The notes beneath the pieces were generated by a model. The model did not search any database. It was not told where the DNA came from and saw only the letters and a list, made by a program, of their open reading frames with translations. From Candidatus Falkowbacteria bacterium (lineage in GTDB: Bacteria; Patescibacteriota; Patescibacteriia; Patescibacteriales; UBA12465): 63,189 bases of DNA. Shown here piece by piece: positions 12,755 to 59,053 of this stretch. The stretch spans positions 1-63,189 of the forward strand of contig JAAZJO010000004.1 in the NCBI GenBank assembly GCA_012800315.1, in the 5' to 3' direction. A program made the translations under genes and the position numbers. Every line of letters begins with the position of its first letter. Within the stretch, counting starts at the first letter, position 1.

Positions 12755-12755
12755 G

Positions 12756-14627: not shown

Positions 14628-14657
14628 AGGAAAATAAATCAATAATTATTTTTTCAC

Positions 14658-18245: not shown

Positions 18246-18337
18246 TAAATTGCTGTCATTATAAAATTTTGATATAATAGAATTAATTAAGTTATAAATT
18301 TTTTTAAAATTAAAATTTTTAATTCTTTTTTTGTATT

Positions 18338-39989: not shown

Positions 39990-40069
39990 AATTTATAGGC
40001 TATATGTTATGATAATATTGATATTTTTTGAAAAATTTATTAAAATTACAGAAAAATTTTAAGGTTTTT

Positions 40070-41905
40070 ATGGCTCAACTTTTTCAATTAAAATCAGATT
40101 TTAAGCCGGCTGGAGATCAGCCAGAAGCGATTAAAAAGCTCTTAAAAGGAATAGAGTCTGGTTTTGATTGTCAAACTCTTTTGGGTGTTACTGGTTCAGG
40201 AAAGACTTTTACAATGGCTAATATTATTGAAAAGCAAAATAGGCCAATTTTAGTAATTGCTCCAAACAAATCTTTAGCAGCACAATTATATCGTGAATAT
40301 AAAAATTTTTTTCCGAATAACGCTGTTCATTATTTTGTTTCTTATTATGATTATTATCAGCCAGAAGCCTATCTACCGATTACCGATACTTATATTGATA
40401 AAGAAGCCATGATTAATCAGGAGATTGATCGTTTACGTCATGGGGCAACTTCAGCTTTAATGACTCGTCGTGATGTAATTATTGTTGCCTCTGTTTCCTG
40501 TATTTATAATTTAGGAGTGCCTTTAACTTATTTAGAATCACGTTTAGTTTTAGAAAAAGGGAAAATAATTGTTCGTTCTGATTTAATAAAACAATTAGTA
40601 AAAATTCAGTTTGAGCGCGTTAATGGTGAAATTAAGCGTGGACAATTTCGCGTACGGGGTGATGTTTTTGAAATTAGACCGATGTCAGAAAATATTATCT
40701 ATCGCCTAGAGTTAAAGAATCAAGAAATTTTTTCTTTAAGCATTATTGATAATATTACTAAAAATATCCTTAATAATTTAGAGGAAATTATTATTTTTCC
40801 GCCTAAACATTTTATTTCTAATGCACCACAAATCAGTACTGCTCTTAAAAATATTCAAGCAGAATTAAAAGATCGTTTAACTTATTTTAAAAAGAAAGGT
40901 TTATCATTAGAAGCTGATAGATTAGAGCGTCGTACTAAATATGATATGGAAATGCTGCAGTCTTTGGGCTATTGTCATGGTATTGAAAACTATTCCCGGC
41001 ACTTAAGTGGAAAATTAGCAGGAGAAGCGCCAGATTCGCTTTTGAGTTATTTCCCGCAGAAAAATGGTCAACCAGATTTTTTAACGATTATTGATGAATC
41101 TCATATTACCATTCCCCAAATTAGGGGCATGTATAATGGTGACCAGGCTCGTAAGCAAAATTTAATTAAATATGGTTGGCGTTTGCCGTCAGCCCTAGAT
41201 AATCGGCCATTAAAATTTCTGGAGTTTAAAAAAAGAGTTGGGCAAATGATTTTTACCACCGCAACACCAGGTGATTATGAAAATAAAAATTCAAAACAAG
41301 TAGTTGAACAGGTAATTCGTCCGACTGGTTTAGTTGATCCAGTAGTAGAAGTTCGTCCGGTTTTTAATAAAGAGGAAAATTATAGCCAGATTAACGATGT
41401 ATTGGCTGAAGTAATTAAAATTTCTGAATTAAATGAGCGAGCGATTATTAATACCTTAACAAAAAAACAAGCAGAAGATTTACATGTTTATTTAGAGGGT
41501 AAGGGGATAAAAACTAATTATTTACATTCTGATATTAAAACTTTTGAACGTACGGAAATTTTAAAGAACTTTCGGGAAGGGAAGTTTAATGTTTTAATTG
41601 GGGTTAATCTTTTGCGAGAAGGTTTAGATTTGCCAGAAGTGACTTTAGTAGCAATTTTAGATGCTGATCGCGAGGGTTTTTTACGTAGTCAAACTTCATT
41701 AATGCAAACTATGGGACGGGCGGCTAGAAATGTAAAAGGGAAAATTATTCTGTATGCTGATAAAATTACCGATTCTATGCGCCGCGCGATTAATGAAGCG
41801 GATCGTAGACGAGACAAGCAGTTGGCTTATAATAAAAAACATCACATTATACCTCAGAATATTCATAAAAAGATTGAGGAATTTTTAGATATTATTGAAG
41901 AATAA
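40070..41905 (+). CDS. uvrB: Excinuclease ABC subunit B (no C-terminal UVR domain)
   Basis: [47 protein letters not shown]; start placed at ATG 40070. Confidence 0.96.
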
Positions 41906-41925
41906 AAAATATAACATTAAATAAA

Positions 41926-44436
41926 ATGTTAGATAATAATAAGTTGATTATCCGTGGCGCACGGACACACAATTTAAAAAATATTAATTTAGAAATACCG
42001 CATAATAAACTAACGGTGATCACTGGTGTTTCTGGTAGCGGTAAATCATCGCTAGCTTTTGATACTATTTTTGCTGAGGGGCAAAGAGAATATGTTGAAT
42101 CTTTGTCGCCTTATATGCGTCAATTTTTAAGTCAGAAAAAGCCAGCTGATGTTGATGAAATAATTGGTTTAGCCCCATCAATTTCAATTGACCAAAAAGC
42201 TTTATCACATAATCCGCGCTCAACGGTTGGTACTTTAACTGATATTTATAATTATTTACGAGTTTTATATGCTCGGGTTGGTGAAGTTTTTTGTCCACTA
42301 TGTGGCACGAAAATAGAAAAATTATCAACTGAAGAAATGGTTGATATTTTGCTTGAGCGCGGTGCTGAATTTGGCGAGGCAGAGGTTACTATTTTTTCTC
42401 CAGTTGTACGTGATCGCAAGGGTGATTATTATCAAGTGCTTTATAATTATTTATCACTTGGTTTTAGTGAGGCGCGTATTGATGGAGCAATTTATTCTTT
42501 AAGGGATAGAATAAAGTTGGCGCCGAAACAGAAACATGATATTGAAATTTTAATTGATCGGGTAATGCTTAATGATCAAACACGCTTATTTGAAGCAGTG
42601 GAGAATGCTTTAGATTATAGCAAAGGGTTGTTGATTGCTAAATACAAAAAACAAGAATTTTTATTATCCGCTAACTGGACTTGCCCGAATGATAATTTTT
42701 CTTTTCCCGAAGTGGAGCCACGTCTATTTTCTTTTAATTCACCACAAGGAGCTTGCCCAGAATGTTCTGGTTTGGGGCGTACTAGTTTTTTTGCTAAAAA
42801 TAAATGTCCAAAATGTCAGGGTGATCGTCTAAGGCCAGAGGCTTTGGCGGTGAGGGTGGCTGGTAAAAATTTAGCGGAAGTGAGTAAATTGCCAATTGAT
42901 AAATTATTAGATTTTTTTAATCGTTATTTTGAAAAAATGACTAAGCGGCAAAGAGTGATCGCGGAAAATGTAGTTGTTCAAATTATTAGTCGTCTAGAAT
43001 TTTTACTTAAAGTCGGTTTAAATTATTTATCCTTAGCTCGGGAAGCATATACTTTATCAGGCGGTGAAGCACAACGCATTCGTTTATCTTCACAAATTGG
43101 TTCCAACCTTTCACGAACGCTTTATGTTCTTGATGAACCAACAATTGGTTTACATGAACGTGATACTGAGCGCTTAATTGATGCTTTAAAAAAATTACGT
43201 GATAAAAATAATACGGTAATTATTGTTGAACATGATGAAAAAACTATTTTAGAAGCTGATTATTTAGTTGATCTAGGGCCATTAGCTGGGGTACATGGTG
43301 GAGAAGTAGTAGCTAGTGGCAATATTAAAGATTTATTAGATCAGAAAAAAAATAAAACTTTCTTTGAGAAATCGCTAACTATTCAATATCTTAGTGGTCA
43401 GGAGAAAATTGATTTACCAGTAAAGCGTCGTAGTCAAAATCATGGCTCATTAAAGATTATTGGCGCTCATGCTAATAATCTAAAAAATATAAAAGTAACA
43501 ATACCGCTAGGGCGCTTAGTTGGTATTAGCGGGGTATCTGGTTCAGGAAAATCATCTTTATTTGAGGTTATTCACAAGAATGTTTCGCGTTTGAAAAATC
43601 ATCCAGGGAAGGTGAAGCTAGAAAATGTAACTGAAATAAAGGGGGTTGAATATTTAAATAAAATTGTAGTGATAGATCAGTCGCCAATTGGTCGCACACC
43701 ACGTTCTAATCCAGCTACCTATACCGGCATTTTTACTCCAATTCGTGATTTCTTCGCTTCTTTGCCTGAATCTCGGGAAAGAGGTTATTCTATAGGTCGT
43801 TTCTCTTTTAATCGCGCTGGAGGGCGTTGTGAGGCCTGTCAGGGAGCAGGGGCGAACCTAATTGAGATGCATTTTTTGCCTCCAGTATTAGTTGAGTGTG
43901 ATGTTTGTCGTGGTAAACGTTTTAACCGTGAAACTTTACAAGTAAAATATAAAGGAAAGAATATTGCTGAAGTTTTAGAGATGACGATTGATGAGGCGAT
44001 TCAGTATTTTGAAGGTAATTATTTTATTACTGATAAATTAAAAGTTTTACAATCAGTTGGCTTAGGGTATATTAAAATTGGTCAAAGTGCCACCACTTTA
44101 TCAGGCGGTGAAGCACAACGAATAAAAATAGCGAAAGAATTAACACATACTTTAGGTAAACGAACTTTATATTTATTAGATGAGCCGACGACGGGTTTGC
44201 ATTATCACGATATTAATATGCTTTTATCAGTTTTGAATCAATTAGTGGAAAAAGGCAATTCGGTTTTAGTAATTGAGCATAATATGCATATATTAAAATC
44301 AATGGATTATATTATTGATTTAGGACCGGATGGCGGAGAGAGTGGTGGACGTCTGGTTGCTGCTGGGGAGCCAGAAGATATTATACGTGAACCAAAAAGT
44401 ATTACTGGAAAATATTTAAAGGAATATTTAAAATAA
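41926..44436 (+). CDS. uvrA: Excinuclease ABC subunit A (836 aa, insertion domain absent)
   Basis: Two ABC modules ([23 protein letters not shown]), Zn fingers, [12 protein letters not shown]. Confidence 0.96.
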
Positions 44437-44464
44437 AAAAGGGTGAATCTTACGAAACACCCTT
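44431..44464 (-). terminator. Rho-independent terminator of the minus-strand RNA
   Basis: Minus strand AAGGGUG-UUUC-GUAA-GAUU-CACCCUU followed by UUUUAUUU; no U-tract on the plus strand. Confidence 0.8.
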
Positions 44465-44603
44465 ATAAAGGACATTAGTCTCTGCAACCTACGTATATAT
44501 AATTATTAACTAATTAAACAAATATTATTATGGCAGAAACTTTGGGGTATACGCAGGTCTTCCGACCCATGCCCTTTTAATAACTCTTTTCTTTAAAGTA
44601 ACC
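44431..44603 (-). ncRNA. Putative small non-coding RNA, rod-shaped (6S RNA-like candidate)
   Basis: Has its own promoter and terminator. Nested stems AAAGGGCA/UGUCCUUU and GACCUGCGUAUA/UAUACGUAGGUU contain G-U pairs that are valid only on the minus strand. Confidence 0.6.
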
Positions 44604-44609
44604 AAGAAT

Positions 44610-44638
44610 AGTATATTATTTTTTTAATTTTTTGTCAA
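44610..44638 (-). promoter_or_regulatory. Consensus sigma70 promoter, minus strand
   Basis: TTGACA(44638-44633)-17 nt-TATACT(44615-44610). Confidence 0.8.
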
Positions 44639-44673
44639 GGGCATAACGATGAATAAATAAAGATATTAATAAA

Positions 44674-45855
44674 ATGGCTAAAATAAGCAAAAAAATATCT
44701 AAAATAGATAGTTTAAAAAGTAAATTAAAAACCGTTCCTGAAAGTCCAGGGATTTATTTTTGGTATGATAAAAAAGGAGTTATTTTATATATTGGTCGGT
44801 CAAATAATTTAAAAAATCGTTTAAGTCAATATTTTCAAAAAAATATTTCACCACGCATCGCGGAAATGCTTGCCTTAGCTACTGATGTTAAATATAAAGT
44901 TACTGAAACTTTATTGGAAGCGATAATTTTGGAAGCAAAAAATATTAAAAAATTTTGGCCGAAATATAATATTGTTGATCGCGATGATCGCTCGTTTATT
45001 TATTTAATAATTCCCAAGACTAGTTTTGCTAAACCATTAATTGTTCGGGGCAGTGATTTAAAAAAAATTCCTACCGCTCAAGCAAAAATATTTGGACCCT
45101 ATCAATCAGTTTATTTATTACAAAGCGCTTTACGTTTGCTTAGACGAATTTTCCCCTACGGAAATTGCACACCGCATAGTGGCAAGGCTTGTTTTGATTA
45201 TCAAATTGGGCTTTGTCCAGGTGGCTGTATTGATGCTATTTCTGCCAAAGATTATCAAAAGAATATTGATAGTCTTTGTTTGCTATTAGCTGGAGAAAAA
45301 AAGCGCTTAATTACTAAGCTAATGAAGGAGAATCCTAATAAGATTAAGGCTTTGCGTCATATTCAAGATGTTTCTTTGTTGATTCGCGAGGATAATTTAA
45401 GGGAGGTAAAAATAAATCGCCTTGAAGGTTATGATATTTCTCATCATGCTGGTAAAGAAAGTTATGGCGCAATGGCAGTGTTTGAAAATGGGGAGGCTAA
45501 TAAAAATGAATACAGGCTATTTAAAATTAAAGAAGCGCCGGGCGGTGATGATGAAAGAGCCTTGGCTGAAGTTTTACTTAGACGCTTTAAGCATAGCGAA
45601 TGGCCGAAACCAGATATTATTATGATTGATGGTGGTTCGCCGCAGATAAGTTTTTTATCCAAAGTGTTTAAAAAAAATAATATCACTGTACCAATCGTGG
45701 GTATTTCTAAACTTGCTGGTGATAAGTTAGTTTTTCCGGCTGGAACTAAAAAAGAATTAAAAGAGTTGGCTGAGAATATTAAAGCAACATTACTAAAATT
45801 ACGTGAAGAAGCACATCGTTTTGCTAATTATGGAAGAAGGAGGGCAAAGTCTTGA
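44674..45855 (+). CDS. uvrC: Excinuclease ABC subunit C, short form
   Basis: GIY-YIG PESPGIY..LYIGRSNNLKNRL, Cys cluster, RLEGYDISH, PDIIMIDGG, LREEAHRFA. Confidence 0.9.
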   Translation: MAKISKKISKIDSLKSKLKTVPESPGIYFWYDKKGVILYIGRSNNLKNRLSQYFQKNISPRIAEMLALATDVKYKVTETLLEAIILEAKNIKKFWPKYNIVDRDDRSFIYLIIPKTSFAKPLIVRGSDLKKIPTAQAKIFGPYQSVYLLQSALRLLRRIFPYGNCTPHSGKACFDYQIGLCPGGCIDAISAKDYQKNIDSLCLLLAGEKKRLITKLMKENPNKIKALRHIQDVSLLIREDNLREVKINRLEGYDISHHAGKESYGAMAVFENGEANKNEYRLFKIKEAPGGDDERALAEVLLRRFKHSEWPKPDIIMIDGGSPQISFLSKVFKKNNITVPIVGISKLAGDKLVFPAGTKKELKELAENIKATLLKLREEAHRFANYGRRRAKS

Positions 45856-45879
45856 CAAAAATCTTTAATTTGTTAAGAT
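45852..45879 (+). promoter_or_regulatory. Promoter of rplJL, overlapping the uvrC stop codon
   Basis: TTGACA-16-TAAGAT. Confidence 0.55.
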
Positions 45880-45901
45880 AAAGTCATAATAAATAATTTT
45901 T

Positions 45902-45987
45902 ACCACAGACAGCTAGCTTGATACATTAGTATCTTTAAGTCTCGCCGAGGTATAAATCCGCTTTTTAAGCGTTTTCTCGTCTGTGGT
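45902..45987 (+). promoter_or_regulatory. Ribosomal protein L10 leader (autoregulatory RNA)
   Basis: ACCACAGACAG...CGCCGAGG...CTCGTCTGTGGT upstream of rplJ, matching the L10 leader pattern (AGACAG / CCGAGG / GUCU). Confidence 0.8.
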
Positions 45988-46030
45988 CACACAGATTTTT
46001 TTATATAAAATCGTTTAATATTAATAATAT

Positions 46031-46561
46031 ATGCCTAAGAATAAAATTCAAAAACAAGAAATTTTACGCAATTTAAGCGAAAAAATTAAAAAGTCAAAGT
46101 CAGTGGTTTTTGTTGGTTTTAATGCTTTAACGGTTAAAGATAATGAAATTCTGCGCGCTCAACTTCGTAAGGAAAATAGCGAATATTATGTGGCTAAAAA
46201 AACTTTAATGAATATCGCTTTTAAAGACCAGATCGCTGATTTAAATGTTCGTGAAATGGATGGTAAATTAGCAGTTATTTTTTCTTATGAAGATGAAGTA
46301 GCGCCAGCGAAAATTTTAGGAAATTTCCGCAAAGACAAAGAGAGGGAGGATCGCATTTTCTTTTTAGGCGGTATTTTAGAAAATAAATTAATCACTAAAG
46401 ATGAGGTAGAGGCTTTAGCAAAATTACCAAGCAAGCAAGAATTATATGGTCGTTTAGTTGGCTCTTTGAATTCTCCTGTTTCTGGTTTTGTTAATGTTTT
46501 GGCGGGTAATTTAAGAAATCTAGTTTATGTTTTAAAAGCTGTCTCCGAAAAGAAAGCTTAA
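46031..46561 (+). CDS. rplJ: 50S ribosomal protein L10
   Basis: [27 protein letters not shown]. Confidence 0.95.
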
Positions 46562-46607
46562 TAAAGAAAGTTTAATAATAATTAATAATAAATTTAATTT
46601 TAAATCT

Positions 46608-47009
46608 ATGGAAGAAAAAAATGTTGTCGTCCCAGCTAAATTTGAAAAGTTGGTAGGCGAAATTGAAAAAATGAGCGTTTTAGATTTAGCTGAGCTCGTT
46701 AAAATCTTAGAAGAAAAGTTTGGCGTGAGTGCAGCCGCTCCAGTGATGGCTATGGCTCCTGGTGCAGCCGCCGGTGCAGCCGCTCCAGCTGAGGAAAAAG
46801 ATAGTTTTGATGTGGAAATTACTGAGGCTGGTGCTAATAAGATTAATGTTATTAAAGCAGTTCGCGAATTAACTGAATTAGGCTTAAAAGAGGCTAAGGA
46901 TTTAGTTGATGCTGCTCCTAAGGTTTTAAAGGAAGGGGTTAAAAAAGCAGAGGCTGAGGAAATGAAGAAGAAATTAGAAGAAGCTGGCGCTAAAGTAACT
47001 TTGAAATAA
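46608..47009 (+). CDS. rplL: 50S ribosomal protein L7/L12
   Basis: [38 protein letters not shown]. Confidence 0.97.
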
Positions 47010-47040
47010 AATTTAGCTTAGCTAAGAATTTAATCTTTTA

Positions 47041-47069
47041 ATAAAAACGCCCTTGAAGGGCGTTTTTAT
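47041..47069. terminator. Bidirectional terminator
   Basis: ATAAAAACGCCC-TTGAA-GGGCGTTTTTAT. Confidence 0.85.
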
Positions 47070-47091
47070 ATTAGTCTTTTTATTTCTTTAT

Positions 47092-49362
47092 TTATTGCTT
47101 CAAAGAAATTTTATAAATTAATTCATCAGCTAAGAAGTAGGCGGTCTTATTTTTTTCATCAACAGCAAAGTCAACTGGAGATAAAGAATCAACTTGGTAT
47201 TGGTTCATAAGATGTCCGTCTTTTATTGCTAAAACTGCTAGTCGTTTTGATTCAGCGTCAAAGAGATAGAGATAGTTTGTCCCGACAATTATCTTATCAG
47301 CTGACATTTCTGGTGAAATAGCGGTCGTTAAATAATCTTCCTTTTTATATAAATGGAATTTTGAAACTTCACCATTATCGTTTAGAGTATAAATACTACC
47401 GTCAATAGATATGTCCACTACTTGGCTTAAATCAACATTTTCTTTTAGCCAATCTGACTTAGAATCATATTTTTTTGCCCCAGTATTATAGGAATAGCGA
47501 AAGATTTGATTTTGGTTTTTAGCTAAAATATAAAGATAGGTATTCCGACCATTATTAAAAATGTCATAAATTACTTTTTCTTCAAGAGAAGTGCCAGCGT
47601 CTAGTTCAGTTACATCTGCTTGATTATTTTTTAAATTATATTTAACAATTTTTCCATCTGCCCAATAGTAAATAAAACCTTTTCTATCAAAACGAGGATT
47701 GCTTAAATTAGTCACATTATTAACCTCAAGACGGCTAGACTCTAAATTTCCAGGCATAATGCTGTAAATCATTTTTCCACCAGCCGCATAAAGTTTATCA
47801 TTAGCCCAAATAAGATTAGATACTGCTAAGCCGCTTAGATCATTAACCTTTTCTGGTTCATCAATGCGTACTATTTTTTGAATTTTATCAGCTTGGTTGT
47901 TAAAGGTATTATTAAAGCGATCATAAATTATTTTTTGATCATCTTTTTCTTTAGGCAAGGTCGCTAATAATTCACTAATTTCTATTAAGGTTTTTTTAGC
48001 ATCTTTTTCATTATCATAAAGTATTAAAGAGTCAATATAAGCCTGTTTTTCACTAATAGCTGAAACTAAATTACTATATTCAACCTTAGCTGTTTCTCGC
48101 TTTTTGTGAATAGAGGTGATTGTTAGACTACCTGTAAAAATGATAATTAATAAGATGAGAACTAAAAATAAACGACGATTTCTTTTCTCCATTTGAGCAA
48201 AACGATCTTTTATTTTTGATGTTAAATTGGTAAATAAGTTAGTATGAAATATGCCAGACAGGGAAGTTAGTATTTTTTTAAATTTTGCACCAATTTGACT
48301 CGGTCTCTTTTTAAAGATTATTTGTTCTTTAATTAGAAAAGAATCAGCTCGCACCATGTTATTCATGGTGTTTACTTTATCCAGATTAACTGTTTTGGCT
48401 GTTTCTTCTTTTTCCTCGGCTGGCCGATAAACTTTTTTCGGTAGGGCCTTTGCTTTTGGTTTTATTTTTTCAATAAATTGTTTAAAGCCCCGGCAAATAT
48501 CAGAGAAATTAATTAAACCAGCTGGAGCCAACATTCTTTCAGTTTTTTTCTCAGTATAATTAAGGCTAGAAATTGAGCCGTGAGCACTTAAAGATTGTTC
48601 AGTTTCTTCGCGCATTTCCTGATTATCGCCGATAGTATTTTTAATGATAATGCCTAGAAAGGGAATAAAAGAATTTATTTTTCCTAAGACATTTTTTATT
48701 TGTTCGGCGGCTACAATGGGTGGTAATTTAGTTATAATATTAATCATGTCTTGATTGGAAATATATTCAGGCAAGGCCTCATTAGTAAAAACGAAATAAG
48801 AGCTAATTGGAATTTCACCACTAATAACTGAGGAAAAAATGCTAGGCGCTTTAAAATCTGCCCGATCTTCATTAGGGTTTACAGAGTTTTTAACCTCATA
48901 AGCATTAGTTTCAACATTAATTATTTCAAATTGCTCACCGTGGCGATAAATTAAGAGTGCCTTGTTTTTACCAAAGTTAGTGAAGTATAATTTATTTTCA
49001 AAAATAACCCCAAGAGTAATATGAGTAGCTGGAACACTGAGTTTAATTTTTTCTTTTATTAGGAAATCATTTAAATTTTTATTGATTTTAGCGACTACCG
49101 CTTCAAAAATTTTTTCAATTTTTAAACCCTCTATTTTATCGCGGAGGAGAATTTTTTCATCATCGTAATAATTTTCATCAATATTGGAAACTAAAAAATC
49201 CATGATTCTACGTCCTTCATTTTTTTTAGCACCAATTTCAGCGATGATAAACATTTTTCCAGCCAAACCTTCTTTAAATGAGTCGGGCTGAGCAATATAG
49301 ACATCACTAAAGCCATTTGACTTGCCAGAATTTAAAATGATAGAAGAAATTTTATTATACAT
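47092..49362 (-). CDS. Single-pass membrane protein: degenerate PP2C-like cytoplasmic domain plus extracytoplasmic beta-propeller
   Basis: PP2C-like strand/helix order without the catalytic Asp residues, a TM segment (LFLVLILLIIIFTG) and NHL-like repeats (DISIDGSIYTL, DFAVDEKNKTAYF); start placed at ATG 49362. Confidence 0.5.
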   Translation of the reverse strand: MYNKISSIILNSGKSNGFSDVYIAQPDSFKEGLAGKMFIIAEIGAKKNEGRRIMDFLVSNIDENYYDDEKILLRDKIEGLKIEKIFEAVVAKINKNLNDFLIKEKIKLSVPATHITLGVIFENKLYFTNFGKNKALLIYRHGEQFEIINVETNAYEVKNSVNPNEDRADFKAPSIFSSVISGEIPISSYFVFTNEALPEYISNQDMINIITKLPPIVAAEQIKNVLGKINSFIPFLGIIIKNTIGDNQEMREETEQSLSAHGSISSLNYTEKKTERMLAPAGLINFSDICRGFKQFIEKIKPKAKALPKKVYRPAEEKEETAKTVNLDKVNTMNNMVRADSFLIKEQIIFKKRPSQIGAKFKKILTSLSGIFHTNLFTNLTSKIKDRFAQMEKRNRRLFLVLILLIIIFTGSLTITSIHKKRETAKVEYSNLVSAISEKQAYIDSLILYDNEKDAKKTLIEISELLATLPKEKDDQKIIYDRFNNTFNNQADKIQKIVRIDEPEKVNDLSGLAVSNLIWANDKLYAAGGKMIYSIMPGNLESSRLEVNNVTNLSNPRFDRKGFIYYWADGKIVKYNLKNNQADVTELDAGTSLEEKVIYDIFNNGRNTYLYILAKNQNQIFRYSYNTGAKKYDSKSDWLKENVDLSQVVDISIDGSIYTLNDNGEVSKFHLYKKEDYLTTAISPEMSADKIIVGTNYLYLFDAESKRLAVLAIKDGHLMNQYQVDSLSPVDFAVDEKNKTAYFLADELIYKISLKQ

Positions 49363-49448
49363 AAGCAAAATTTCAACCCTTTAGATAAGCTAAATGGATT
49401 GACTGTTTACAAGATATATTATACTATAAATTTATAAATAAAGAAAAT

Positions 49449-50132
49449 ATGCTCAACCTTCTTTTTGGTTCAGATACGCGAGTAAAAATTCTCAACCTTT
49501 TTCTTCTTCATCCAGAAAATAGCTATAATATTTCCCAAATAACCCGTAATTTAAAGTTAACGGCTGCTTCAGTGCGCCGTGAGTTAGATAATTTAGTGGA
49601 ATTAGGGCTGATTAATGTTTTAATTAAACGAAACACTGATCCGACTGAAGAGGTTGAAAAAGAAATAACGACTAAGGGGGTGAATAAGAAGGGAAAAGGG
49701 AAAAATAAGAGGGAGCTAAAAACTAAAAAGAAAGAAGTAGGTAAAATTCAAGAAAAAAAATTTTTTAACATAAATAAAAATTTTATCCTTTATCCAGAGT
49801 TAAGGGCTTTTTTCATTAAAGCGCAAATTTTATCAAGTAAAAACTTTATTACTGCTTTAGAAAAAAACTTTCAACCAAAATTATTAATGCTAACTGGTTT
49901 TTTTACTAATTATCCAGAGGCTAAAACTGATCTTCTGATTGTTGGCTCAATTAAACGCCCTCCTTTTTTAAAATTAATCGCTGAGTTGGAAAAAGAATTA
50001 GAAAGAGAAATAAACTTTACTATTATGGGGGAAAAAGAATTTAGGTATCGTCAGGAGTTGATGGATATTTTTCTTTTTAATATTTTAGAAGGGAAAACTA
50101 TTACTTTAATTAATAATCTGTCTGATAAGTAA
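49449..50132 (+). CDS. Winged-helix protein with C-terminal degenerate nucleotidyltransferase-like domain
   Basis: LFGSDTRVKIL..ASVRRELDNLVELGLI (wHTH); LTGFF..KTDLLIVG..LEREINFTIM (MNT-like). Confidence 0.6.
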   Translation: MLNLLFGSDTRVKILNLFLLHPENSYNISQITRNLKLTAASVRRELDNLVELGLINVLIKRNTDPTEEVEKEITTKGVNKKGKGKNKRELKTKKKEVGKIQEKKFFNINKNFILYPELRAFFIKAQILSSKNFITALEKNFQPKLLMLTGFFTNYPEAKTDLLIVGSIKRPPFLKLIAELEKELEREINFTIMGEKEFRYRQELMDIFLFNILEGKTITLINNLSDK

Positions 50133-50133
50133 T

Positions 50134-52011
50134 ATGAAAGACATAATTATTAATATTCTAAGAATTTTTACTAAATTGCTAAAATACGCTCTGATTACTG
50201 TCATCGGGCTTTTTTTTATTTCAGTAATTTTATTAAGTGGAACAATTCGTGATTTTAGAGCAGCTTATCTTTCTGGCTTAGAGGGGAAAAATCAATTAAC
50301 AGAAGCATTTGCTCAGTTGAAATCAGGAAATTACGAGGAAGCTTTAAGGAATTCGCAGTTAGCTAATCTTAATTTTAATGCTTCTTTAGAAAGACTTAAT
50401 TCAGTTCAAAATAATATTTTTGTTAAAAAAATTTCTCTTTTCCGCACTCAGGTAAATTATCTAGAATATCTTTTTAAGACCACTGAAATATTAAGCAGTT
50501 CTTTGGAACGCTCAATTCCTCTTGTTAAGCAATTAGAGGAAATTAGTGGTGGGAAAGTTGGCAATAGTTTTGCTAATCTGGATAACCAAAATAAAAGTAA
50601 GTTTTTACAATTACTTTATGAGTCTGGCCCAGAAATTAATGGTCTAAAAGCTAATTTAAAGTTAGCTCTATTTAATATTGATAAGATTCATAAAATTAGT
50701 ATTTTATGGCCAGTTTATGGTCAAATAAGTGAATACAAAACCCAACTCCAAGAAGTTTCGTTTTTGCTGGAAAAAATAAGTTCATTAATACAAGTTTTAC
50801 CAACTTTAAGTGGTTATCCAGTAGAAAAAGAATTTTTAATTCTTTTACAAAATAATGATGAGTTAAGACCAACCGGAGGATTTATTGGTGTTTTTGGTTT
50901 AGCTCATGTAAAAAATGGCAATATTATTTCTTTAAAGACCAGTGATAGTTATCATCTAGATATGCCGGCTGTCAATAAATGGCAAAAAGAGCCACCGGCG
51001 CCATTAAAAAAATATTTAGAGGTAGAAAATTGGTATTTGCGTGATGCTAATTGGGTACCTGATTGGCCGTTAGCTGCCCAAAAAATAAATGAGATTTACA
51101 CTGGAGAAAGTTTAGCTATTGGTCAAGCAGCTCCTAATTTTGCTGGTATTATTGCTGTTAATCCCGATTTTGTGGGTGGTTTATTAAACTTAGTCGGTCC
51201 AATTAAGGCTAGTGGTGAGGAATATAATGCCCATAATTTTCAAGAATTATTGCAATATAATGTTGAGGTCGCTTATAAAGATCGTGATATTTCTTCTTGG
51301 GACCGCAAGGAAATAATTAATGAATTATTAGAGGAGTTAAAAACTCGTTTATTTAATTTATCCTCAAATCAATGGGTTGATTTAGCAAAAGTGATAACTG
51401 AGGCAATAGAGAGAAAAGATTTACAAATGTATTTTTTTGATTCAACCTTAGAAGAGTTAGTAAAAAATATCGGGGCAGCTGGGGAAATGAAGCAAACAGA
51501 TAGTGATTATTTAATGGTGGTTGATGCTAATTTAGCTGCCTTTAAAAGTGATGCGGTAGTTAAGAAAAAAATTGATTATAATCTTAGTCAGCGAAATAAT
51601 AAGACTACAGCAACCTTAACCTTAAATTATCGTCATGAAGGTGATTTTGATTGGCGAACAACTCGCTATCGCAGTTATACTAGAGTATATTTACCTTATG
51701 GTAGTCGCTTGATTACTAGTTCTGGCTTAGATAAAAACAAGGCGGATTGGAGTTCTACTGATGATCAGCTTTTAAATAAAACTGTTTTTGCCTTCTTTTT
51801 TACCGTTGAGCCAGGAACAGAAAAAGAAATTAGCCTTAGCTATTCTTTACCAGAAAGTATTAATCAGCAAATGACTGCTGGTACTTATAATCTTTTAGTC
51901 CAAAAACAATCTGGTCGGCGAACACAGGAATTGACGGTGACCATTAGTCCAGAAAAAGGTGGTGTTAAAAATTGGGTAACTGATTTATGGACTGATAAAT
52001 TTTTTCAATAA
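50134..52011 (+). CDS. DUF4012 domain protein
   Basis: N-terminal TM segment; LLQNNDELRPTGGFIG; LRDANWVPDWP. Confidence 0.85.
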   Translation: MKDIIINILRIFTKLLKYALITVIGLFFISVILLSGTIRDFRAAYLSGLEGKNQLTEAFAQLKSGNYEEALRNSQLANLNFNASLERLNSVQNNIFVKKISLFRTQVNYLEYLFKTTEILSSSLERSIPLVKQLEEISGGKVGNSFANLDNQNKSKFLQLLYESGPEINGLKANLKLALFNIDKIHKISILWPVYGQISEYKTQLQEVSFLLEKISSLIQVLPTLSGYPVEKEFLILLQNNDELRPTGGFIGVFGLAHVKNGNIISLKTSDSYHLDMPAVNKWQKEPPAPLKKYLEVENWYLRDANWVPDWPLAAQKINEIYTGESLAIGQAAPNFAGIIAVNPDFVGGLLNLVGPIKASGEEYNAHNFQELLQYNVEVAYKDRDISSWDRKEIINELLEELKTRLFNLSSNQWVDLAKVITEAIERKDLQMYFFDSTLEELVKNIGAAGEMKQTDSDYLMVVDANLAAFKSDAVVKKKIDYNLSQRNNKTTATLTLNYRHEGDFDWRTTRYRSYTRVYLPYGSRLITSSGLDKNKADWSSTDDQLLNKTVFAFFFTVEPGTEKEISLSYSLPESINQQMTAGTYNLLVQKQSGRRTQELTVTISPEKGGVKNWVTDLWTDKFFQ

Positions 52012-52029
52012 AGTAGAGATATTTTTTGT

Positions 52030-53328
52030 ATGAATATTTTTCTAATTTCAACCATCATTTTACTATTAATTATTATTGCCTTTCAGCCCAAGATTGGTAT
52101 TTATTTAATAGCCGCCTGCTTGCCGATAATTGGGCGAGATATAAACTTATATGGACTAGTTATTCCAATTTCTGATTTAGTGGCTTTATTAACTTTATAC
52201 GGCTTTGTAATAAATTTATTTTACCGAGTTATTTTTAAACCCAAAGATTGTATTAAAATAACTTGGCCATTATTTTTTCCCTTTTTAATCTTTTTCTTGA
52301 TGAATATTTTGTCAATTATTTTTTCTGCCAATCCCGCCTATTCTTTTTATTATTTTTTACGTTGGCCATTTTTTCTTTATGTTGCTTATATTTTTGTTCC
52401 AGCCAATGTTATTGTTGATACCAAAACCTTAAAAAATACGGTAGTGATTGTTTTTTTGAGCGCAATGGCAGTTTTATTTTCTGGTTATTTATCTTTAATT
52501 GGACAAGATTGGCAAAATAGTTTTTTCCGCTTAAAATCTGTTTATTTTTGGGGCGCTTATCCTTTTGGTGATAACCACAATTTAATTGCCGAGTTTTTAA
52601 ATATTGGCGTTTTCTTTGTTTTAGTGATTAAAGAATTTTTAAAAACCAAAAGAGGGAAGCGAGTAGCAAATATTGTTTTTTTCTTAACAGCTCTAGGAAT
52701 TATTTTAACTTTTTCGCGCGCTGGCTGGATTACTCTATTTTTACAGTTAGGAATTTATTTATTTTTCTGGACTAAAAATGATCGTAAAAAAAAGTTATCT
52801 ATAGCCATGTTTGCTCTTTTAGGAGTTGTGATTATTTCGCCCTTACTTTGGAAAATGAGCGTGCTTCAAGATAATAATACTAGCTCAACTGAGAATCGTC
52901 TTTTATTAACTGAAATTGCCTGGAACGCCTTTAAGGAAAAACCCCTCTTTGGTCATGGTAGTGGAGAGTTTATTAATTTAGTGGGCAATAATATTCGTTT
53001 TGTGGCTAAATATGGTGCACCGATTGATTCCCATGGCGCCTTACAGAAAGTTTTAGCAGAAAATGGTATTTTAGGCTTAATAAGCTGGTTGTTTATTTTA
53101 GCTTATCTAGCTAGATTTAGCTTTTTAGCTATTAAAAAATATTATCCAAAAGTATCCTGGGTCCTACCTTTTGCCCTAGCAGCACTCGGTGGAATATTTT
53201 TTCAATTTTTTAATACCTCATATTTCAAGGGGCGAGTCTGGTTTCCTTTAACTCTTTTTTACTTAGCGATAAAATTTTCTGAACAATTATATGTCAAAAA
53301 AAATAAAGATTCTTCACGTCTTACCTAA
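52030..53328 (+). CDS. O-antigen ligase (Wzy_C)-family membrane protein
   Basis: LTFSRAGWI, NRLLL..KPLFGHGSG, DSHGALQKVLAENGILG. Confidence 0.82.
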   Translation: MNIFLISTIILLLIIIAFQPKIGIYLIAACLPIIGRDINLYGLVIPISDLVALLTLYGFVINLFYRVIFKPKDCIKITWPLFFPFLIFFLMNILSIIFSANPAYSFYYFLRWPFFLYVAYIFVPANVIVDTKTLKNTVVIVFLSAMAVLFSGYLSLIGQDWQNSFFRLKSVYFWGAYPFGDNHNLIAEFLNIGVFFVLVIKEFLKTKRGKRVANIVFFLTALGIILTFSRAGWITLFLQLGIYLFFWTKNDRKKKLSIAMFALLGVVIISPLLWKMSVLQDNNTSSTENRLLLTEIAWNAFKEKPLFGHGSGEFINLVGNNIRFVAKYGAPIDSHGALQKVLAENGILGLISWLFILAYLARFSFLAIKKYYPKVSWVLPFALAALGGIFFQFFNTSYFKGRVWFPLTLFYLAIKFSEQLYVKKNKDSSRLT

Positions 53329-54424
53329 TTTAAGTCAGGGAGGCGCAGAAAAAATTTGCCGTGAACTTTTACTGAAAATTGATCCAGAAAAATTTTCTTC
53401 TGCTCTTTTATTATTTAAAGATAATAATTCAGTTCAAGTGGGTAGAGAAGAGTTGTTAAATAATAATATTGAAATAATTTCTTTGCGTAAAAGATGTTTA
53501 TTTGATTTGTTTAATTTTTGGAAAATAATAAAGGCGATAAAAAAATATCAGCCAGATATTGTTCACACCCATCTCGGAGGGGATATTTATGGCCGTCTAG
53601 CAGCCAAATTAGTAGCCGTACCGATAATTGTTTCCACTGAACATAATTTAAATAACAGTGAACGTCGCTTAGCTACTATCGCTAAAAAAATTACTGCTCG
53701 TTATGCTACTAAAATTTTTGCTGTTTCTGAAGCAGTGAAAAAAGATGCTCTTAAACGGTACAATATCCCGACAAAAAAAATAGAAGTTATTTATAATGGA
53801 ATAGATATTACTGAGTTTAAAGCTAATAATTTTAAAACTAATGATTTAAAAAACGATGATTTAATTGTCTTTGGCGCCTTAGGTCGCTTAACGGAGCAGA
53901 AAGGATTTGCAACTTTGATTGAGGCAGCTGCTCAATTAAAAAATAAAAATTATTTACTTAAAATAGCTGGTGTTGGCGAGTTGGCAGAAAAATTAAATAA
54001 AAGAATTACTGAATTAGGTTTAAATAAACAAGTTCAATTAGTGGGGGCAGTTAAAGCAGCTGATTTTTTAGCTAGTTTAGATATTTTTGTTTTTCCTTCA
54101 CTTTGGGAAGGTTTGGGTTTAGCTATTTTAGAAGCTGGCGCTTTAGCTAAGCCAGTAATTGCTAGTGATATTGATGGTATTAAAGAAGTTTTAAATGATG
54201 ATAATGCTTGGCTTTTTCCGGCCGGTGAAATAGATAAATTGGCGGCCAGAATGGATTTTGTGATGACCAATTTAGAAAGCGCGGCAGTTAAAATAAAAGC
54301 GGAAAAATTAAAAAATTTAATCAATAAGCATTTTAATTTAGATCTTATGATTGAGGCTTATAGAGAGTGGTATGAAATTTTACTTTTAGAGAAATCGCTT
54401 ATTAAAAATGATGTAAAAAAATAA
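53291..54424 (+). CDS. Glycosyltransferase family 4
   Basis: GGAEK, GRLTEQKG, PSLWEGLGLAILEA. Confidence 0.9.
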   Translation: MSKKIKILHVLPNLSQGGAEKICRELLLKIDPEKFSSALLLFKDNNSVQVGREELLNNNIEIISLRKRCLFDLFNFWKIIKAIKKYQPDIVHTHLGGDIYGRLAAKLVAVPIIVSTEHNLNNSERRLATIAKKITARYATKIFAVSEAVKKDALKRYNIPTKKIEVIYNGIDITEFKANNFKTNDLKNDDLIVFGALGRLTEQKGFATLIEAAAQLKNKNYLLKIAGVGELAEKLNKRITELGLNKQVQLVGAVKAADFLASLDIFVFPSLWEGLGLAILEAGALAKPVIASDIDGIKEVLNDDNAWLFPAGEIDKLAARMDFVMTNLESAAVKIKAEKLKNLINKHFNLDLMIEAYREWYEILLLEKSLIKNDVKK

Positions 54425-54428
54425 TTAT

Positions 54429-55679
54429 ATGCGTATTCTTCAAGTCAATAAATTTTATTATTCTCACGGCGGAGCTGATAAATACTTTCTTAATTTAACA
54501 GACGCCTTAAAGAAATCTGGACAGACAGTGGCTGTTTTTTCGATGACTCACCCGAAAAATTTGGCTAGTGAATTTAAGCAATATTTTGTTTCGCAAATTG
54601 AATTTAATAATGCCTCTTTAAGTGATAAATTAAAAGCGCCGGGGCGAATAATTTATAGTTTAGAGGCAAAAAGAAAGTTTAAAAAACTAGTTAATGATTT
54701 TCAACCAGATATTATTCATGTTCATAATATTTACCACCAAATTTCACCCTCAATTTTAGATGTGGCTAAGCGAAAGAGAATTCCGGTGATCATGCATTTA
54801 CATGATTATAAGTTACTTTGTCCGAACTATCAATTATTTACTCAAGGACAAACTTGTGAAGCGTGCCGGCCGAAAAAATATGGTCAATGTGTACGAAAAA
54901 AATGCTTTAAAGAATCGTTAGCTAAAAGTTTCTTGGCTAGCAGTGAAATGTTTATCCATCATTCATTATTAAAAATATATAAAAAAAACATTACTCTCTT
55001 TATTGCTCCAAGTAATTTTATGAAAAAGAAAGTGGTGGGGTTTGCTTGGCCTGCTGATAAAGTTAGGGTGGTTGTTAATCCTTTTTCTATAGATGAAGAG
55101 ACAGGGAAGGAGCAGGGGATAGAGAAAAATAAAATATCAACAGCGGAAGATTATTTATTATACTTTGGTCGCTTGTCAAAAGAAAAGGGAATTGAAACTT
55201 TAATTAAGGCAGCAGCGTTAACTAAAACTAAGGTAAAATTGGCTGGTACTGGTCCGGAGGAACTGAGATTAAAGGAGGCAGCTAAAATAACAGGCGCCCG
55301 AGTTGATTTTTTAGGTTTTAAAAATGGACCAGAATTGCGCCAGATAATCACTAAAGCTAAAGCGGTGCTTATTCCCTCAATTTGGTATGAAAACATGCCC
55401 TTAAGCCTCCTAGAGGCCCTTAGCCTAGGAAAAATAGTGATAGCCGCTAATATTGGTGGTTTGCCAGAAATTATTCATAATGGAGAAAATGGATTTCTAT
55501 TTGAACCTCAAAATATTGAGGATTTGAAGACTAAAATTTCCTTACTAGATACTCTTGATGAAGAGAAAAAACAATCTATTCAAAAGCGCGCCAAAGAGAG
55601 CGTAGCTCACTTAACCCCCGAAAATAATCTCAAAGAAATTTTAAATATCTATCAAGAGATTTTGAAAAATAAAAAATAA
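54429..55679 (+). CDS. Glycosyltransferase family 4
   Basis: YFGRLSKEKG, PSIWYENMPLSLLEA. Confidence 0.9.
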   Translation: MRILQVNKFYYSHGGADKYFLNLTDALKKSGQTVAVFSMTHPKNLASEFKQYFVSQIEFNNASLSDKLKAPGRIIYSLEAKRKFKKLVNDFQPDIIHVHNIYHQISPSILDVAKRKRIPVIMHLHDYKLLCPNYQLFTQGQTCEACRPKKYGQCVRKKCFKESLAKSFLASSEMFIHHSLLKIYKKNITLFIAPSNFMKKKVVGFAWPADKVRVVVNPFSIDEETGKEQGIEKNKISTAEDYLLYFGRLSKEKGIETLIKAAALTKTKVKLAGTGPEELRLKEAAKITGARVDFLGFKNGPELRQIITKAKAVLIPSIWYENMPLSLLEALSLGKIVIAANIGGLPEIIHNGENGFLFEPQNIEDLKTKISLLDTLDEEKKQSIQKRAKESVAHLTPENNLKEILNIYQEILKNKK

Positions 55680-55702
55680 TTTTTTAAGAAAACATTAATA
55701 AA

Positions 55703-55733
55703 AAAAACAAGCTCCACTGAGAAGCTTGTTTTT
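55703..55733. terminator. Bidirectional terminator
   Basis: AAAAACAAGCT-CCACTGAGA-AGCTTGTTTTT. Confidence 0.75.
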
Positions 55734-55759
55734 ATAAATATTTTAATAATTAATTTTAC

Positions 55760-57037: not shown

Positions 57038-57057
57038 ATATTTTTTTACTTCCCATA

Positions 57058-57135
57058 ATTATGCACTATATTAATAATTTTGTCAAGCCCTTTGCCAAGC
57101 CAACTATTGACAAATGAAAATAATTGTAGTATAAA
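57058..57135. promoter_or_regulatory. Divergent sigma70 promoters
   Basis: Minus strand TTGACA(57086-57081)-17-CATAAT; plus strand TTGACA(57107-57112)-17-TATAAA. Confidence 0.6.
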
Positions 57136-57168
57136 GTAAAGATATAAAATAAATAAATTAAAGAATAT

Positions 57169-57978: not shown

Positions 57979-58005
57979 GAAAAAGTTAATTATATAGCGT
58001 ACCTC

Positions 58006-58033
58006 TTGACAAAAATAGAAAAAGTATTATAAT
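58006..58033 (+). promoter_or_regulatory. Sigma70 promoter
   Basis: TTGACA-16-TATAAT. Confidence 0.7.
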
Positions 58034-58093
58034 TAAATGAAAAACTTTTTATAGTTTTCAAATAAAAGTACATTAACAATTAAAATAAATATA

Positions 58094-59005: not shown

Positions 59006-59053
59006 GAGATTGGTTGAAATTAATTGTTAATATGATTGTAAAAAAAATTAGAA

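What the first reader, a model, noticed from the sequence alone, without database searches (positions are those of the whole stretch)
44431..44638. Unannotated ~170-nt structured small RNA between uvrA and uvrC (6S-like candidate)
Seen in the sequence: a minus-strand TTGACA-17-TATACT promoter with the same hexamers and spacing as the tRNA-Leu promoter at 12861-12889, and a terminator whose U-tract is only on the minus strand. Between them is a nested rod: an 8-bp stem (44577-44570 with 44474-44467), an internal loop, a 12-bp stem (44559-44548 with 44497-44486), an unpaired CCCCAAAGUUUCUGCC segment and an AU-rich apex. All three non-Watson-Crick pairs in these stems are G-U on the minus strand but A-C on the plus strand, which fixes the strand. 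An alternative GGUC-GGAA-GACC GNRA hairpin competes for the same bases, so two conformations are possible. Inference: size and rod-with-bubble shape resemble 6S RNA, but I do not see clear 6S primary motifs, so it may be a new RNA class. Short overlapping ORFs exist on both strands (MGRKTCVYPKVSAIIIFV on minus, with its AUG at the edge of the closing stem; MAETLGYTQVFRPMPF on plus), so a peptide-coding or antisense role is not excluded.
Basis: partly seen in the sequence, partly recalled or inferred. Interest (0 to 1): 0.78.

Follow-up and report, generated by a model that had tools for sequence, protein, structure and literature searches.

The report
Antisense small RNA between uvrA, uvrC
A self-contained gene for a folded, non-coding RNA of about 170 bases sits backwards between two DNA-repair genes of an ultra-small (CPR/Falkowbacteria-type) bacterium; it is not 6S RNA, related genomes carry similar backward units in the same slot, and its function is still unproven.

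Summary
There is a minus-strand TTGACA-17-TATACT promoter (11/12), a terminator whose U-tract lies only on the minus strand, the two stems at the stated coordinates, three G-U pairs, and a competing GGAA hairpin. The minus strand folds better than shuffles (z -4.15) and better than the plus strand (z -2.44).

The 6S reading fails. No Rfam family matches here or in relatives' gaps. The fold has no central bubble. The syntenic units of relatives range from 59 to 450 nt. SRP RNA is excluded too, because the genome has no Ffh or FtsY.

The unit is one case of a clade-wide pattern. Of 36 short uvrA-uvrC gaps in relatives, 25 carry a backward promoter-to-terminator unit and none carries a forward one. 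Promoter and terminator are kept, but the bodies diverge too fast to align. The bodies are still structured and enriched in GNRA-capped hairpins on the sense strand.

One metatranscriptome holds a perfect 261-nt contig on exactly this locus and nothing else long from 40 kb of the window. Ten other runs show nothing there, and the strand is unproven.

Best reading: a lineage-specific antisense small RNA gene nested in the uvrA-uvrC operon junction, acting in cis and possibly also in trans. Interest is moderate.

The parts
44633..44638 (-). -35 hexamer TTGACA of the small-RNA promoter
   Evidence: 11/12 match. The 29-nt promoter, spacer included, is identical in relative L100 and nearly so in L104.
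44610..44615 (-). -10 hexamer TATACT. The predicted start of the RNA is about 44603.
   Evidence: The start site is inferred from the spacing and is not mapped.
44578..44604 (-). 5' hairpin of the RNA (9 pairs, three of them G-U). It overlaps a weak plus-strand promoter-like site for uvrC (TTTAAA 44592-44597, TATTAT 44614-44619).
   Evidence: The TTTAAA element is kept in L100 and L104.
44467..44577 (-). Main rod. The closing stem is 44577-44569 with 44475-44467, then GGUC/GACU (44567-44564 with 44480-44477), then the 12-bp stem 44559-44548 with 44497-44486.
   Evidence: MFE fold and pair list.
44554..44569 (-). Alternative GNRA hairpin UGGGUC-GGAA-GACCUG, which competes with the rod
   Evidence: A GUC-GNRA-GAC hairpin is also present once in L100 and twice in L104.
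44517..44547 (-). Unpaired segment CCCCAAAGUUUCUGCCAUAAUAAUAUUUG, a candidate pairing surface
   Evidence: It is largely unpaired in the centroid structure. GUUU(U)CU..GCCAU(A/U)AUA is shared with L104. The best predicted partner is the rpsM start region, which is a weak lead.
44500..44516 (-). AU-only apical hairpin
44431..44464 (-). Intrinsic terminator: hairpin 44464-44439 plus a U-tract. The U-tract overlaps the uvrA stop codon on the other strand.
   Evidence: The U-tract is on the minus strand only.
41926..44436 (+). uvrA (836 aa), convergent with the small RNA
   Evidence: Its C-terminus was used as a tblastn probe.
44674..45855 (+). uvrC, short 393-aa form, divergent from the small-RNA promoter

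Best explanation
This is a lineage-specific gene for a non-coding RNA of about 170 nt, nested backwards in the junction of the uvrA-uvrC repair operon.

Shown: a near-consensus sigma-70 promoter lies back to back with the uvrC upstream region. A one-directional intrinsic terminator abuts the uvrA stop codon. The sense strand folds stably into a rod that can switch to a GNRA-capped hairpin. The same backward promoter-to-terminator frame fills this slot in most related genomes that have a gap there. RNA from exactly this locus was found in one metatranscriptome.

Inferred mechanism: uvrA and uvrC are ancestrally one operon, since they overlap in more distant relatives. The terminator has no U-tract on the plus strand, so uvrA transcription should still read through to uvrC. 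The backward unit would then act in cis in two ways. Firing of the strong convergent promoter would interfere with read-through. The RNA is also perfectly complementary to the intercistronic part of any uvrA-uvrC transcript, which would give RNase III (present in the genome) a duplex to cut. Either effect would uncouple or tune uvrC relative to uvrA.

An added trans role through the exposed loop (CCCCAAAGUUUCUGCCAUAAU...) is possible.

My odds: about 0.8 that a discrete minus-strand non-coding RNA is made, and about 0.4 that the cis antisense mode is its main function.
For: Signals and fold.

Orientation bias: in 75 unique uvrA-uvrC gaps of relatives, the minus orientation has 68 promoters, 73 terminators and 43 complete units. 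The plus orientation has 12, 25 and 2. Among the 36 short gaps, 25 have a minus unit and none has a plus unit.

Operon ancestry: uvrA and uvrC abut or overlap in the more distant relatives.

Selection on the frame: the promoter, including its spacer, is identical between the window and L100 while the body is not alignable.

Selection on the bodies: sense folding z-scores are mostly more negative than antisense ones. There are 17 GNRA-capped hairpins in sense against 6 in antisense and 5.1+-2.2 in shuffles. Close pairs show GNRA-preserving changes: L053 GUGA versus L059 GCGA, and L056 GCAA versus L061 GAAA.

Expression: run X25 holds one perfect 261-nt contig at 44374-44634, depth 8.3, and no other long piece of this organism in window 1-20000 or 40001-60000. 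It holds no RNase P contig, and a tmRNA contig at depth 3.3.

RNase III: its signature NERLEFLGD lies in a 234-aa ORF on C5.

Other: no Rfam family fits. Earlier notes of this scan describe backward modules in the same slot in other Patescibacteria. Those are leads, not independent proof.
Against: The transcribed strand is not shown, because only undirected contigs were available. The X25 contig runs 31 nt beyond the predicted start and 59 nt beyond the terminator, so the ends do not fit a clean 170-nt minus-strand RNA.

Ten other RNA runs that hold this organism's 16S rRNA or tmRNA show nothing on the locus. Small RNAs may be lost in library preparation, and those strains may differ.

Read-through from uvrA to uvrC and RNase III cutting are inferred, not observed.

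A pure cis role does not explain why the bodies are structured and carry GNRA loops.

No covariation could be measured for this RNA itself.
Confidence: 0.4

Rival explanations
1. It is a trans-acting base-pairing small RNA. The stable rod and terminator present the unpaired 30-nt segment (CCCCAAAGUUUCUGCCAUAAUAAUAUUUG), which pairs with the start regions of mRNAs elsewhere in the genome. Its position next to uvrC would then be incidental.
For: It has the usual architecture of free-standing small RNAs: its own promoter, an exposed segment and an intrinsic terminator. Fast sequence turnover with a kept promoter and terminator is typical of such RNAs. The rpsM (S13) start region is the best of 577 predicted partners, at -24 kcal/mol with about 13 contiguous pairs over the AUG. 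That target site is kept in the genomes of L100 and L104. The L104 RNA ranks it 17th of 577.
Against: The top hit was picked after the fact from a smooth tail of energies. The L100 RNA ranks rpsM only 77th of 577. C-rich seed motifs are not enriched across the relatives' units (37 sense against 30 antisense). No Hfq signature was found. A trans role does not explain the strict antisense orientation and fixed slot.
Confidence: 0.25
2. It is a passenger or by-product. The uvrA-uvrC junction is simply a permissive slot. Only backward units with one-directional terminators are tolerated there, because they do not cut uvrC off from the uvrA promoter. The RNA is made but has no function of its own, or the promoter matters only as a bidirectional partner of the uvrC promoter.
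For: Bodies are unrelated between lineages and range from 59 to 450 nt. Some units are little more than a promoter and a terminator. The slot also holds an ogt-like gene in some relatives and small ORFan genes in other Patescibacteria, according to earlier notes. The -10 boxes of the minus promoter and of a weak plus promoter overlap. That arrangement is known for symmetric bidirectional promoters (my own knowledge: Warman et al. 2021).
Against: A perfect TTGACA -35 box is kept in nearly all lineages. The bodies fold better in sense than in antisense, and they are enriched in GNRA hairpins with loop-preserving substitutions. Neither feature is expected of neutral spacer.
Confidence: 0.2
3. The plus strand carries the function. 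The structured stretch would be the 3' end of the uvrA mRNA or a leader of uvrC, and the RNA-seq contig would come from that strand.
For: The X25 contig (44374-44634) starts inside uvrA and ends at the plus-strand T-run 44618-44632, not at the predicted minus-strand ends. The plus strand also folds somewhat better than shuffles (z -2.44).
Against: The plus-strand fold is 15.6 kcal/mol weaker, and all three wobble pairs become A-C. No Rfam leader matches. Promoters and terminators in this slot point backwards 68:12 and 73:25. X25 has no coverage of the rest of uvrA or uvrC.
Confidence: 0.07
4. It is a functional analogue of 6S RNA, a rod-shaped RNA that binds the RNA polymerase holoenzyme, in a clade where no 6S RNA is recognisable.
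For: No RF00013 match in this genome or in 39 relatives, so the slot for 6S is open. The size of about 170 nt and the rod shape fit. In run X25 its depth is at or above that of tmRNA and RNase P RNA.
Against: There is no large central bubble and no long terminal stem. There is no CM hit even at E<=10. The syntenic units vary from 59 to 450 nt and are missing where uvrA and uvrC abut. The RNA is absent from ten RNA runs that hold this organism's 16S rRNA or tmRNA. RF00013 itself rings in only 5 of 14 control genomes, so its silence is weak evidence either way.
Confidence: 0.04
5. It is a small-peptide gene or a type I toxin-like mRNA, translated from the 18-aa ORF MGRKTCVYPKVSAIIIFV.
For: The ORF exists, and its AUG sits at the edge of the closing stem. 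L100 and L104 have short hydrophobic ORFs (MFSCVISFLVNIW..., MFSLPLYAYCVL...) in the corresponding T-rich stretch, read from the sequences. Tandem, fast-evolving, structured units are typical of type I toxin loci (my own knowledge).
Against: There is no Shine-Dalgarno sequence at a workable distance (AAGGG lies 1 nt before the AUG), although the 16S tail is canonical. The hydrophobic run is only about 8 residues long. The shared nucleotide motif is read in different frames in different genomes. T-rich RNA gives hydrophobic codons in any frame.
Confidence: 0.04

Closest known systems
Noncontiguous operons and excludons: an oppositely oriented gene nested between co-transcribed genes (Staphylococcus menE-menC/ytkD; Listeria excludons). 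Named from my own knowledge.
   Same: A self-contained unit on the opposite strand sits between two genes that are ancestrally one operon. Its transcript would be fully complementary to the operon's read-through RNA. RNase III is encoded.
   Different: Here the nested unit is a short non-coding RNA that ends before it overlaps either coding region. Co-transcription of uvrA and uvrC across it and mutual regulation are not shown.
Free-standing bacterial regulatory small RNAs with their own promoter and intrinsic terminator, such as RoxS/RsaE, the LhrC copies and PrrF1/2
   Same: Size, a strong promoter, a Rho-independent terminator, an exposed single-stranded segment, fast sequence turnover and occasional tandem copies in relatives.
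   Different: No conserved seed, no validated target and no known chaperone. C-rich motifs are not enriched. The position is fixed to one operon junction and the orientation is strictly antisense.
6S RNA (Rfam RF00013)
   Same: About 170 nt, largely double-stranded, driven by a sigma-70 consensus promoter, and detectable in a metatranscriptome at tmRNA-like depth in one run.
   Different: No CM match, no central bubble flanked by two long helices, and no conservation of size or sequence in relatives.
Bidirectional promoters with overlapping -10 elements (Warman et al. 2021; from my own knowledge)
   Same: The minus -10 box (44615-44610) overlaps a plus-strand -10-like TATTAT (44614-44619). The predicted start sites are about 20 bp apart.
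   Different: The backward arm is much the stronger one (perfect -35). It has a dedicated terminator and a structured body, so it is not a mere consequence of sequence symmetry.

Membership tests
6S RNA (RF00013) | Match to the family covariance model at or near the gathering score | tested here: not met
   No hit at the gathering score in the window. No 6S hit at E<=10 in 44380-44720. No hit in the whole genome at E<=1 or in the relatives' gaps.
6S RNA (RF00013) | Long rod with a large central bubble between a closing stem and a terminal stem | tested here: not met
   The MFE and centroid folds show a 4x6 internal loop and a roughly 50-nt AU-rich apex with a 6-bp AU hairpin. There is no two-sided bubble.
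6S RNA (RF00013) | Size and structure conserved among related genomes | tested here: not met
   The syntenic units are 59-450 nt with bodies that cannot be aligned, and they are absent where uvrA and uvrC abut.
6S RNA (RF00013) | Binds sigma-70 holoenzyme and templates short product RNAs | not testable with these tools
   Only assembled contigs of the RNA runs were available, so no short-read view was possible.
Bacterial SRP RNA (RF00169 / RF01854) | Match to the covariance model, and a helix 8 with a GNRA loop plus the conserved AGCA-type loops | tested here: not met
   No hits. A GGAA loop is present, but the sequence after it is GACCUGCG, not GGAAGCAGC.
Bacterial SRP RNA (RF00169 / RF01854) | The partner protein Ffh (M domain) is encoded | tested here: not met
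   No PF02978 and no PF00448 in the genome. No DTAGR motif in any of the six frames. None of 25 genomes searched (own plus 24 relatives) has PF02978.
Free-standing regulatory small RNA | Own promoter and intrinsic terminator, with no gene downstream on that strand | tested here: met
Free-standing regulatory small RNA | Transcribed as a discrete RNA | tested here: inconclusive
   A perfect local contig in X25 and one in X26, but the strand is unknown, the ends are offset, and ten other runs show nothing.
Free-standing regulatory small RNA | Conserved pairing segment with conserved targets | tested here: inconclusive
   The rpsM start region ranks 1st, 17th and 77th of 577 for the window, L104 and L100 RNAs. 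The first rank was chosen after the fact.
Noncontiguous operon / excludon | An oppositely oriented unit nested between genes of one operon | tested here: met
   uvrA and uvrC are co-directional, and they overlap or abut in the more distant relatives. Backward units are found in 25 of 36 short gaps and forward units in none.
Noncontiguous operon / excludon | The flanking genes are co-transcribed across the nested unit, with RNase III-dependent mutual regulation | not testable with these tools
   Indirect only. There is no plus-strand terminator in the gap, few plus-strand promoters in relatives' gaps, and rnc is present.
Type I toxin-antitoxin mRNA | A conserved small hydrophobic ORF with a ribosome-binding site | tested here: not met
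   An 18-aa ORF without a usable SD sequence. There is no frame conservation with L100 or L104 (sequences).

The most novel reading that the evidence does not exclude
Across Falkowbacteria-type Patescibacteria, the uvrA-uvrC junction may be a dedicated regulatory slot. An almost invariant backward promoter and terminator frame would carry fast-evolving, folded RNAs. These RNAs would gate the incision nuclease UvrC in cis and would also bind a cellular factor through their GNRA-capped hairpins. That would make them a new class of riboregulator coupling excision repair to cell state in organisms that have no LexA.
Probability: 0.12. Interest if true: 0.7.

Novelty: new member of a known kind. 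Interest (0 to 1): 0.4.

Why it matters
To my knowledge, almost nothing is known about regulatory RNAs in CPR/Patescibacteria, and most of these organisms cannot be grown alone. This locus offers a concrete candidate that is visible in at least one metatranscriptome. It also shows a reproducible genomic rule: a backward promoter-to-terminator unit sits in the uvrA-uvrC junction, 25 to 0 in orientation. That rule can be tested with reporters in laboratory strains.

If the cis model holds, it would show how a minimal genome without LexA tunes excision repair. If it does not hold, the slot still yields dozens of fast-evolving structured RNAs for comparative work.

The side observation that the whole SRP pathway seems absent in this order may matter more than the RNA itself.

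Tried and rejected
- Rfam: nothing at the gathering score on the window, at E<=10 on the region, on 20 relatives' loci or at E<=1 on 11 loci.
- 6S, small SRP and large SRP models on the whole genome and on relatives: no hits.
- BLASTN of the RNA against 60 relatives: only AT-rich chance hits.
- nhmmer and BLAST among 77 gaps: bodies align only between very close pairs. Covariation for the window RNA was therefore not measurable.
- A three-sequence alignment of a neighbouring subfamily (L031, L035, L111) gave 2 compensatory pairs out of 27, which is too thin.
- A hand-made SRP regex scan was too noisy to use.
- The GTTCTTT motif looked like a family signature, with 43 sense against 11 antisense copies. 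It turned out to be a general promoter-proximal leader motif of this clade, and it is not exactly present in the window RNA.
- LexA-box idea: no LexA homologue by tblastn.
- The idea that GUUCUUU pairs with 16S rRNA: no AAAGAAC in the 16S, and the anti-SD tail is canonical.
- C-rich seed idea: no enrichment.
- Paralogues of relatives' units elsewhere in this genome: none.
- The raw-read run X27 gave no reads on the locus, so the strand could not be read.
- Two literature searches found nothing relevant on small RNAs or SRP loss in Patescibacteria.
Full report
**Setting.** The window comes from a 634-kb, 17-contig genome that is 97.75% complete. Its closest public relatives are labelled Candidatus Falkowbacteria or Patescibacteria. 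GC content is about 33%. The same sequence occurs with all sampled words in about 20 biogas-fermenter, digester and bioreactor DNA runs. uvrA (41926-44436) and a short 393-aa uvrC (44674-45855) both lie on the plus strand, 237 nt apart.

**Checking the observation.**
- The consensus scan finds TTGACA-17-TATACT on the minus strand at 44638-44610. At 11 of 12 it is the best site in 43500-45500.
- Genome-wide there are only 71 sites of this quality.
- The minus-strand RNA (44605-44431) folds to -48.5 kcal/mol, z -4.15. The plus strand gives -32.9, z -2.44.
It also reproduces exactly three G-U pairs in them and the terminator hairpin 44464-44439 with a U-tract on the minus strand only.
- Forcing the GGUC-GGAA-GACC hairpin costs only 2.6 kcal/mol.
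- Both short ORFs exist, but the 18-aa minus-strand ORF has no usable ribosome-binding site.

**Known families.**
- Rfam finds RNase P RNA and two tRNAs in the window and nothing at this locus. An E<=10 scan of the region gives only noise.
- The whole genome has no 6S, small SRP or large SRP match. aragorn finds a tmRNA on C5.
- SRP RNA is excluded on independent grounds. The genome has no Ffh M domain, no SRP54-type GTPase at all and no DTAGR motif in any frame.
- The same holds in relatives: none of 41 genomes has RF00169 and none of 25 has PF02978, while the controls ring in 13-14 of 14.
- 6S is also undetectable in 39 relatives, but that model rings in only 5 of 14 controls, so this is weak evidence.
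- The fold has no central bubble between two long helices.
- The 6S-like reading is therefore not supported.

**Relatives.** Using UvrC as an anchor I fetched 80 genome loci and 80 metagenome loci and located the end of uvrA and the start of uvrC in each.
- In the more distant relatives the two genes abut or overlap, which is the operon state.
- In the Falkowbacteria-type clade the gap is 70-450 nt, or longer when extra genes are present. One such gene is an ogt-like methyltransferase on the plus strand.
- In the short gaps there is nearly always a backward consensus promoter next to the start of uvrC (or ogt) and a strong backward terminator next to the uvrA stop.
- Counted on 75 unique gaps, the minus orientation has 68 promoters, 73 terminators and 43 complete units. 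The plus orientation has 12, 25 and 2.
- Among the 36 short gaps, 25 carry a backward unit and none carries a forward one. Some gaps hold two units in tandem.
- The window's unit is therefore one instance of a conserved arrangement.

**What is conserved and what is not.** The nearest relatives are L100 and L104 (UvrA C-terminus 95% identical, UvrC about 83%).
- L100 has the identical 29-nt promoter, spacer included; L104's differs at a few positions.
- All three share the first bases of the RNA (GGUUAYUUUWAAA), a GUC-GNRA-GAC hairpin, CCUUUAU and the terminator.
- The rest does not align.
- The unit lengths I measured range from 59 to 450 nt.
- No relative's unit has a copy elsewhere in this genome.
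- The bodies are nevertheless not neutral-looking. Their folding z-scores are mostly more negative in sense than in antisense (window -2.6 against -0.8).
- GNRA-capped hairpins number 17 in sense, 6 in antisense and 5.1+-2.2 in shuffles. Close pairs show loop-preserving changes: GUGA versus GCGA, and GCAA versus GAAA.
- A neighbouring subfamily (L031, L035, L111) shares a conserved 3' domain, but three sequences give only 2 compensatory pairs.

**A motif that led away.** GTTCTTT is enriched on the sense strand of the gaps, with 43 copies against 11 and about 8 expected. However, it is a general leader element of this clade. It peaks 15-29 nt after the -10 box of strong promoters and precedes genes such as rpsA and pnp in this genome. 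The window RNA has only a relative of it (GUUUCUGCCAU). There is no LexA, and there is no complementary site in the 16S rRNA.

**Expression.**
- Two cDNA runs of one wastewater study hold the sequence.
- In X25 a perfect 261-nt contig (44374-44634, depth 8.3) is the only long piece of this organism across window 1-20000 and 40001-60000.
- X25 has no RNase P contig. Its tmRNA contig has depth 3.3.
- In X26 coverage of the organism is patchy. The locus (44316-44561, depth 3.3) is one of about eleven patches, beside RNase P RNA at 4.6 and tmRNA at 8.4.
- Ten other RNA runs that hold this organism's 16S rRNA or tmRNA show nothing on the locus.
- Contigs carry no strand, and the one raw-read run gave no reads.
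- The X25 contig overshoots the predicted start by 31 nt and the terminator by 59 nt.
- RNA from this locus therefore exists and can exceed the flanking mRNAs. Its strand, its ends and its general abundance are not established.

**Mechanism.**
- The strict antisense orientation, the one-directional terminators, the scarcity of plus-strand promoters in the gaps and the ancestral operon state together fit a noncontiguous-operon arrangement. In that arrangement uvrA transcription reads through to uvrC. A strong convergent promoter then produces an RNA fully complementary to the intercistronic transcript.
- RNase III is encoded, and no Hfq signature was found.
- I rate this cis mode the most likely at about 0.4. 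It accounts for the fixed position and orientation and for the fact that unrelated bodies can occupy the frame.
- It does not by itself explain the structured bodies, so a trans role is the main rival at 0.25.
- The exposed loop pairs best with the rpsM start region (rank 1 of 577). The target site is conserved in the genomes of L100 and L104, and their RNAs rank it 17th and 77th. This is a lead only.
- The remaining probability is shared by a passenger or by-product reading (0.2), a plus-strand element (0.07), a 6S analogue (0.04) and a peptide gene (0.04).

**Earlier notes of this scan.** One search returned notes describing backward small-RNA or small-ORF modules in the uvrA-uvrC slot of other Patescibacteria. 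These agree with the orientation statistics I computed here and raised my weight on a slot-level explanation. They are unchecked AI notes and I do not count them as independent evidence.

**Verdict.** The unit is a real, previously undescribed small RNA gene candidate, not 6S, SRP or any Rfam family. It is a new member of the known kind of free-standing or antisense bacterial small RNAs, placed in a clade-wide antisense slot. Interest is moderate (0.4).

Noticed in passing
whole genome G000 (window = C16) and relatives G001-G052: The whole SRP pathway seems to be missing. The genome has no SRP RNA (RF00169, RF01854), no Ffh M domain (PF02978), no SRP54-type GTPase (PF00448, so neither Ffh nor FtsY) and no DTAGR motif in any of the six frames, although it is 97.75% complete. 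None of 41 genomes (own plus relatives) has RF00169 and none of 25 has PF02978. Controls ring in 13-14 of 14. This deserves its own follow-up.
   Followed up: partly
own genome, e.g. C5:24356(+), C5:24727(+), C5:122878(-), C13:56658(+), C5:49374(-); relatives' loci L031-L190: The heptamer GTTCTTT is a sense-strand leader element. It peaks 15-29 nt after the -10 box of strong promoters (7 of 149 promoters in that single bin, against 0-2 in every other bin). It is often preceded by a small 5' hairpin, and it stands before rpsA (S1), pnp (PNPase) and several hypothetical genes. Its function is unknown.
   Followed up: partly
own genome C1:71205(-), C5:18472(+), C5:30866(+), C5:73081(+): Four further orphan units of 34-127 nt, each with a consensus promoter and an intrinsic terminator, and with no ORF and no tRNA. 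They are further small-RNA candidates and are unrelated in sequence to the uvrA-uvrC RNA.
   Followed up: no
window 45856-46030; relatives e.g. L079:5065-5186, L102:6422-6550: Relatives have an Rfam L10 leader (RF00557) downstream of uvrC. The window has a 175-nt gap before the 176-aa ORF at 46031, but no hit at the gathering score. A diverged L10 leader may lie there.
   Followed up: no
relatives L037, L156, L113, L128, L162, L066 (uvrA-uvrC gap): In several relatives an ogt/MGMT-like methyltransferase gene (PCHRV motif) on the plus strand sits between the backward RNA unit and uvrC. The backward promoter then abuts the start of ogt instead.
   Followed up: no
L191 (own C5:23500-24300) in runs X25 and X26: The tmRNA contigs in the two cDNA runs differ from the genome at 2-4 positions, while the small-RNA contig is identical. 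More than one close strain may be present in those samples.
   Followed up: no
window 44674-45855: UvrC is only 393 aa long and ends before the usual C-terminal domains. The same short form is seen in all relatives fetched and was noted by other readers of this scan.
   Followed up: no
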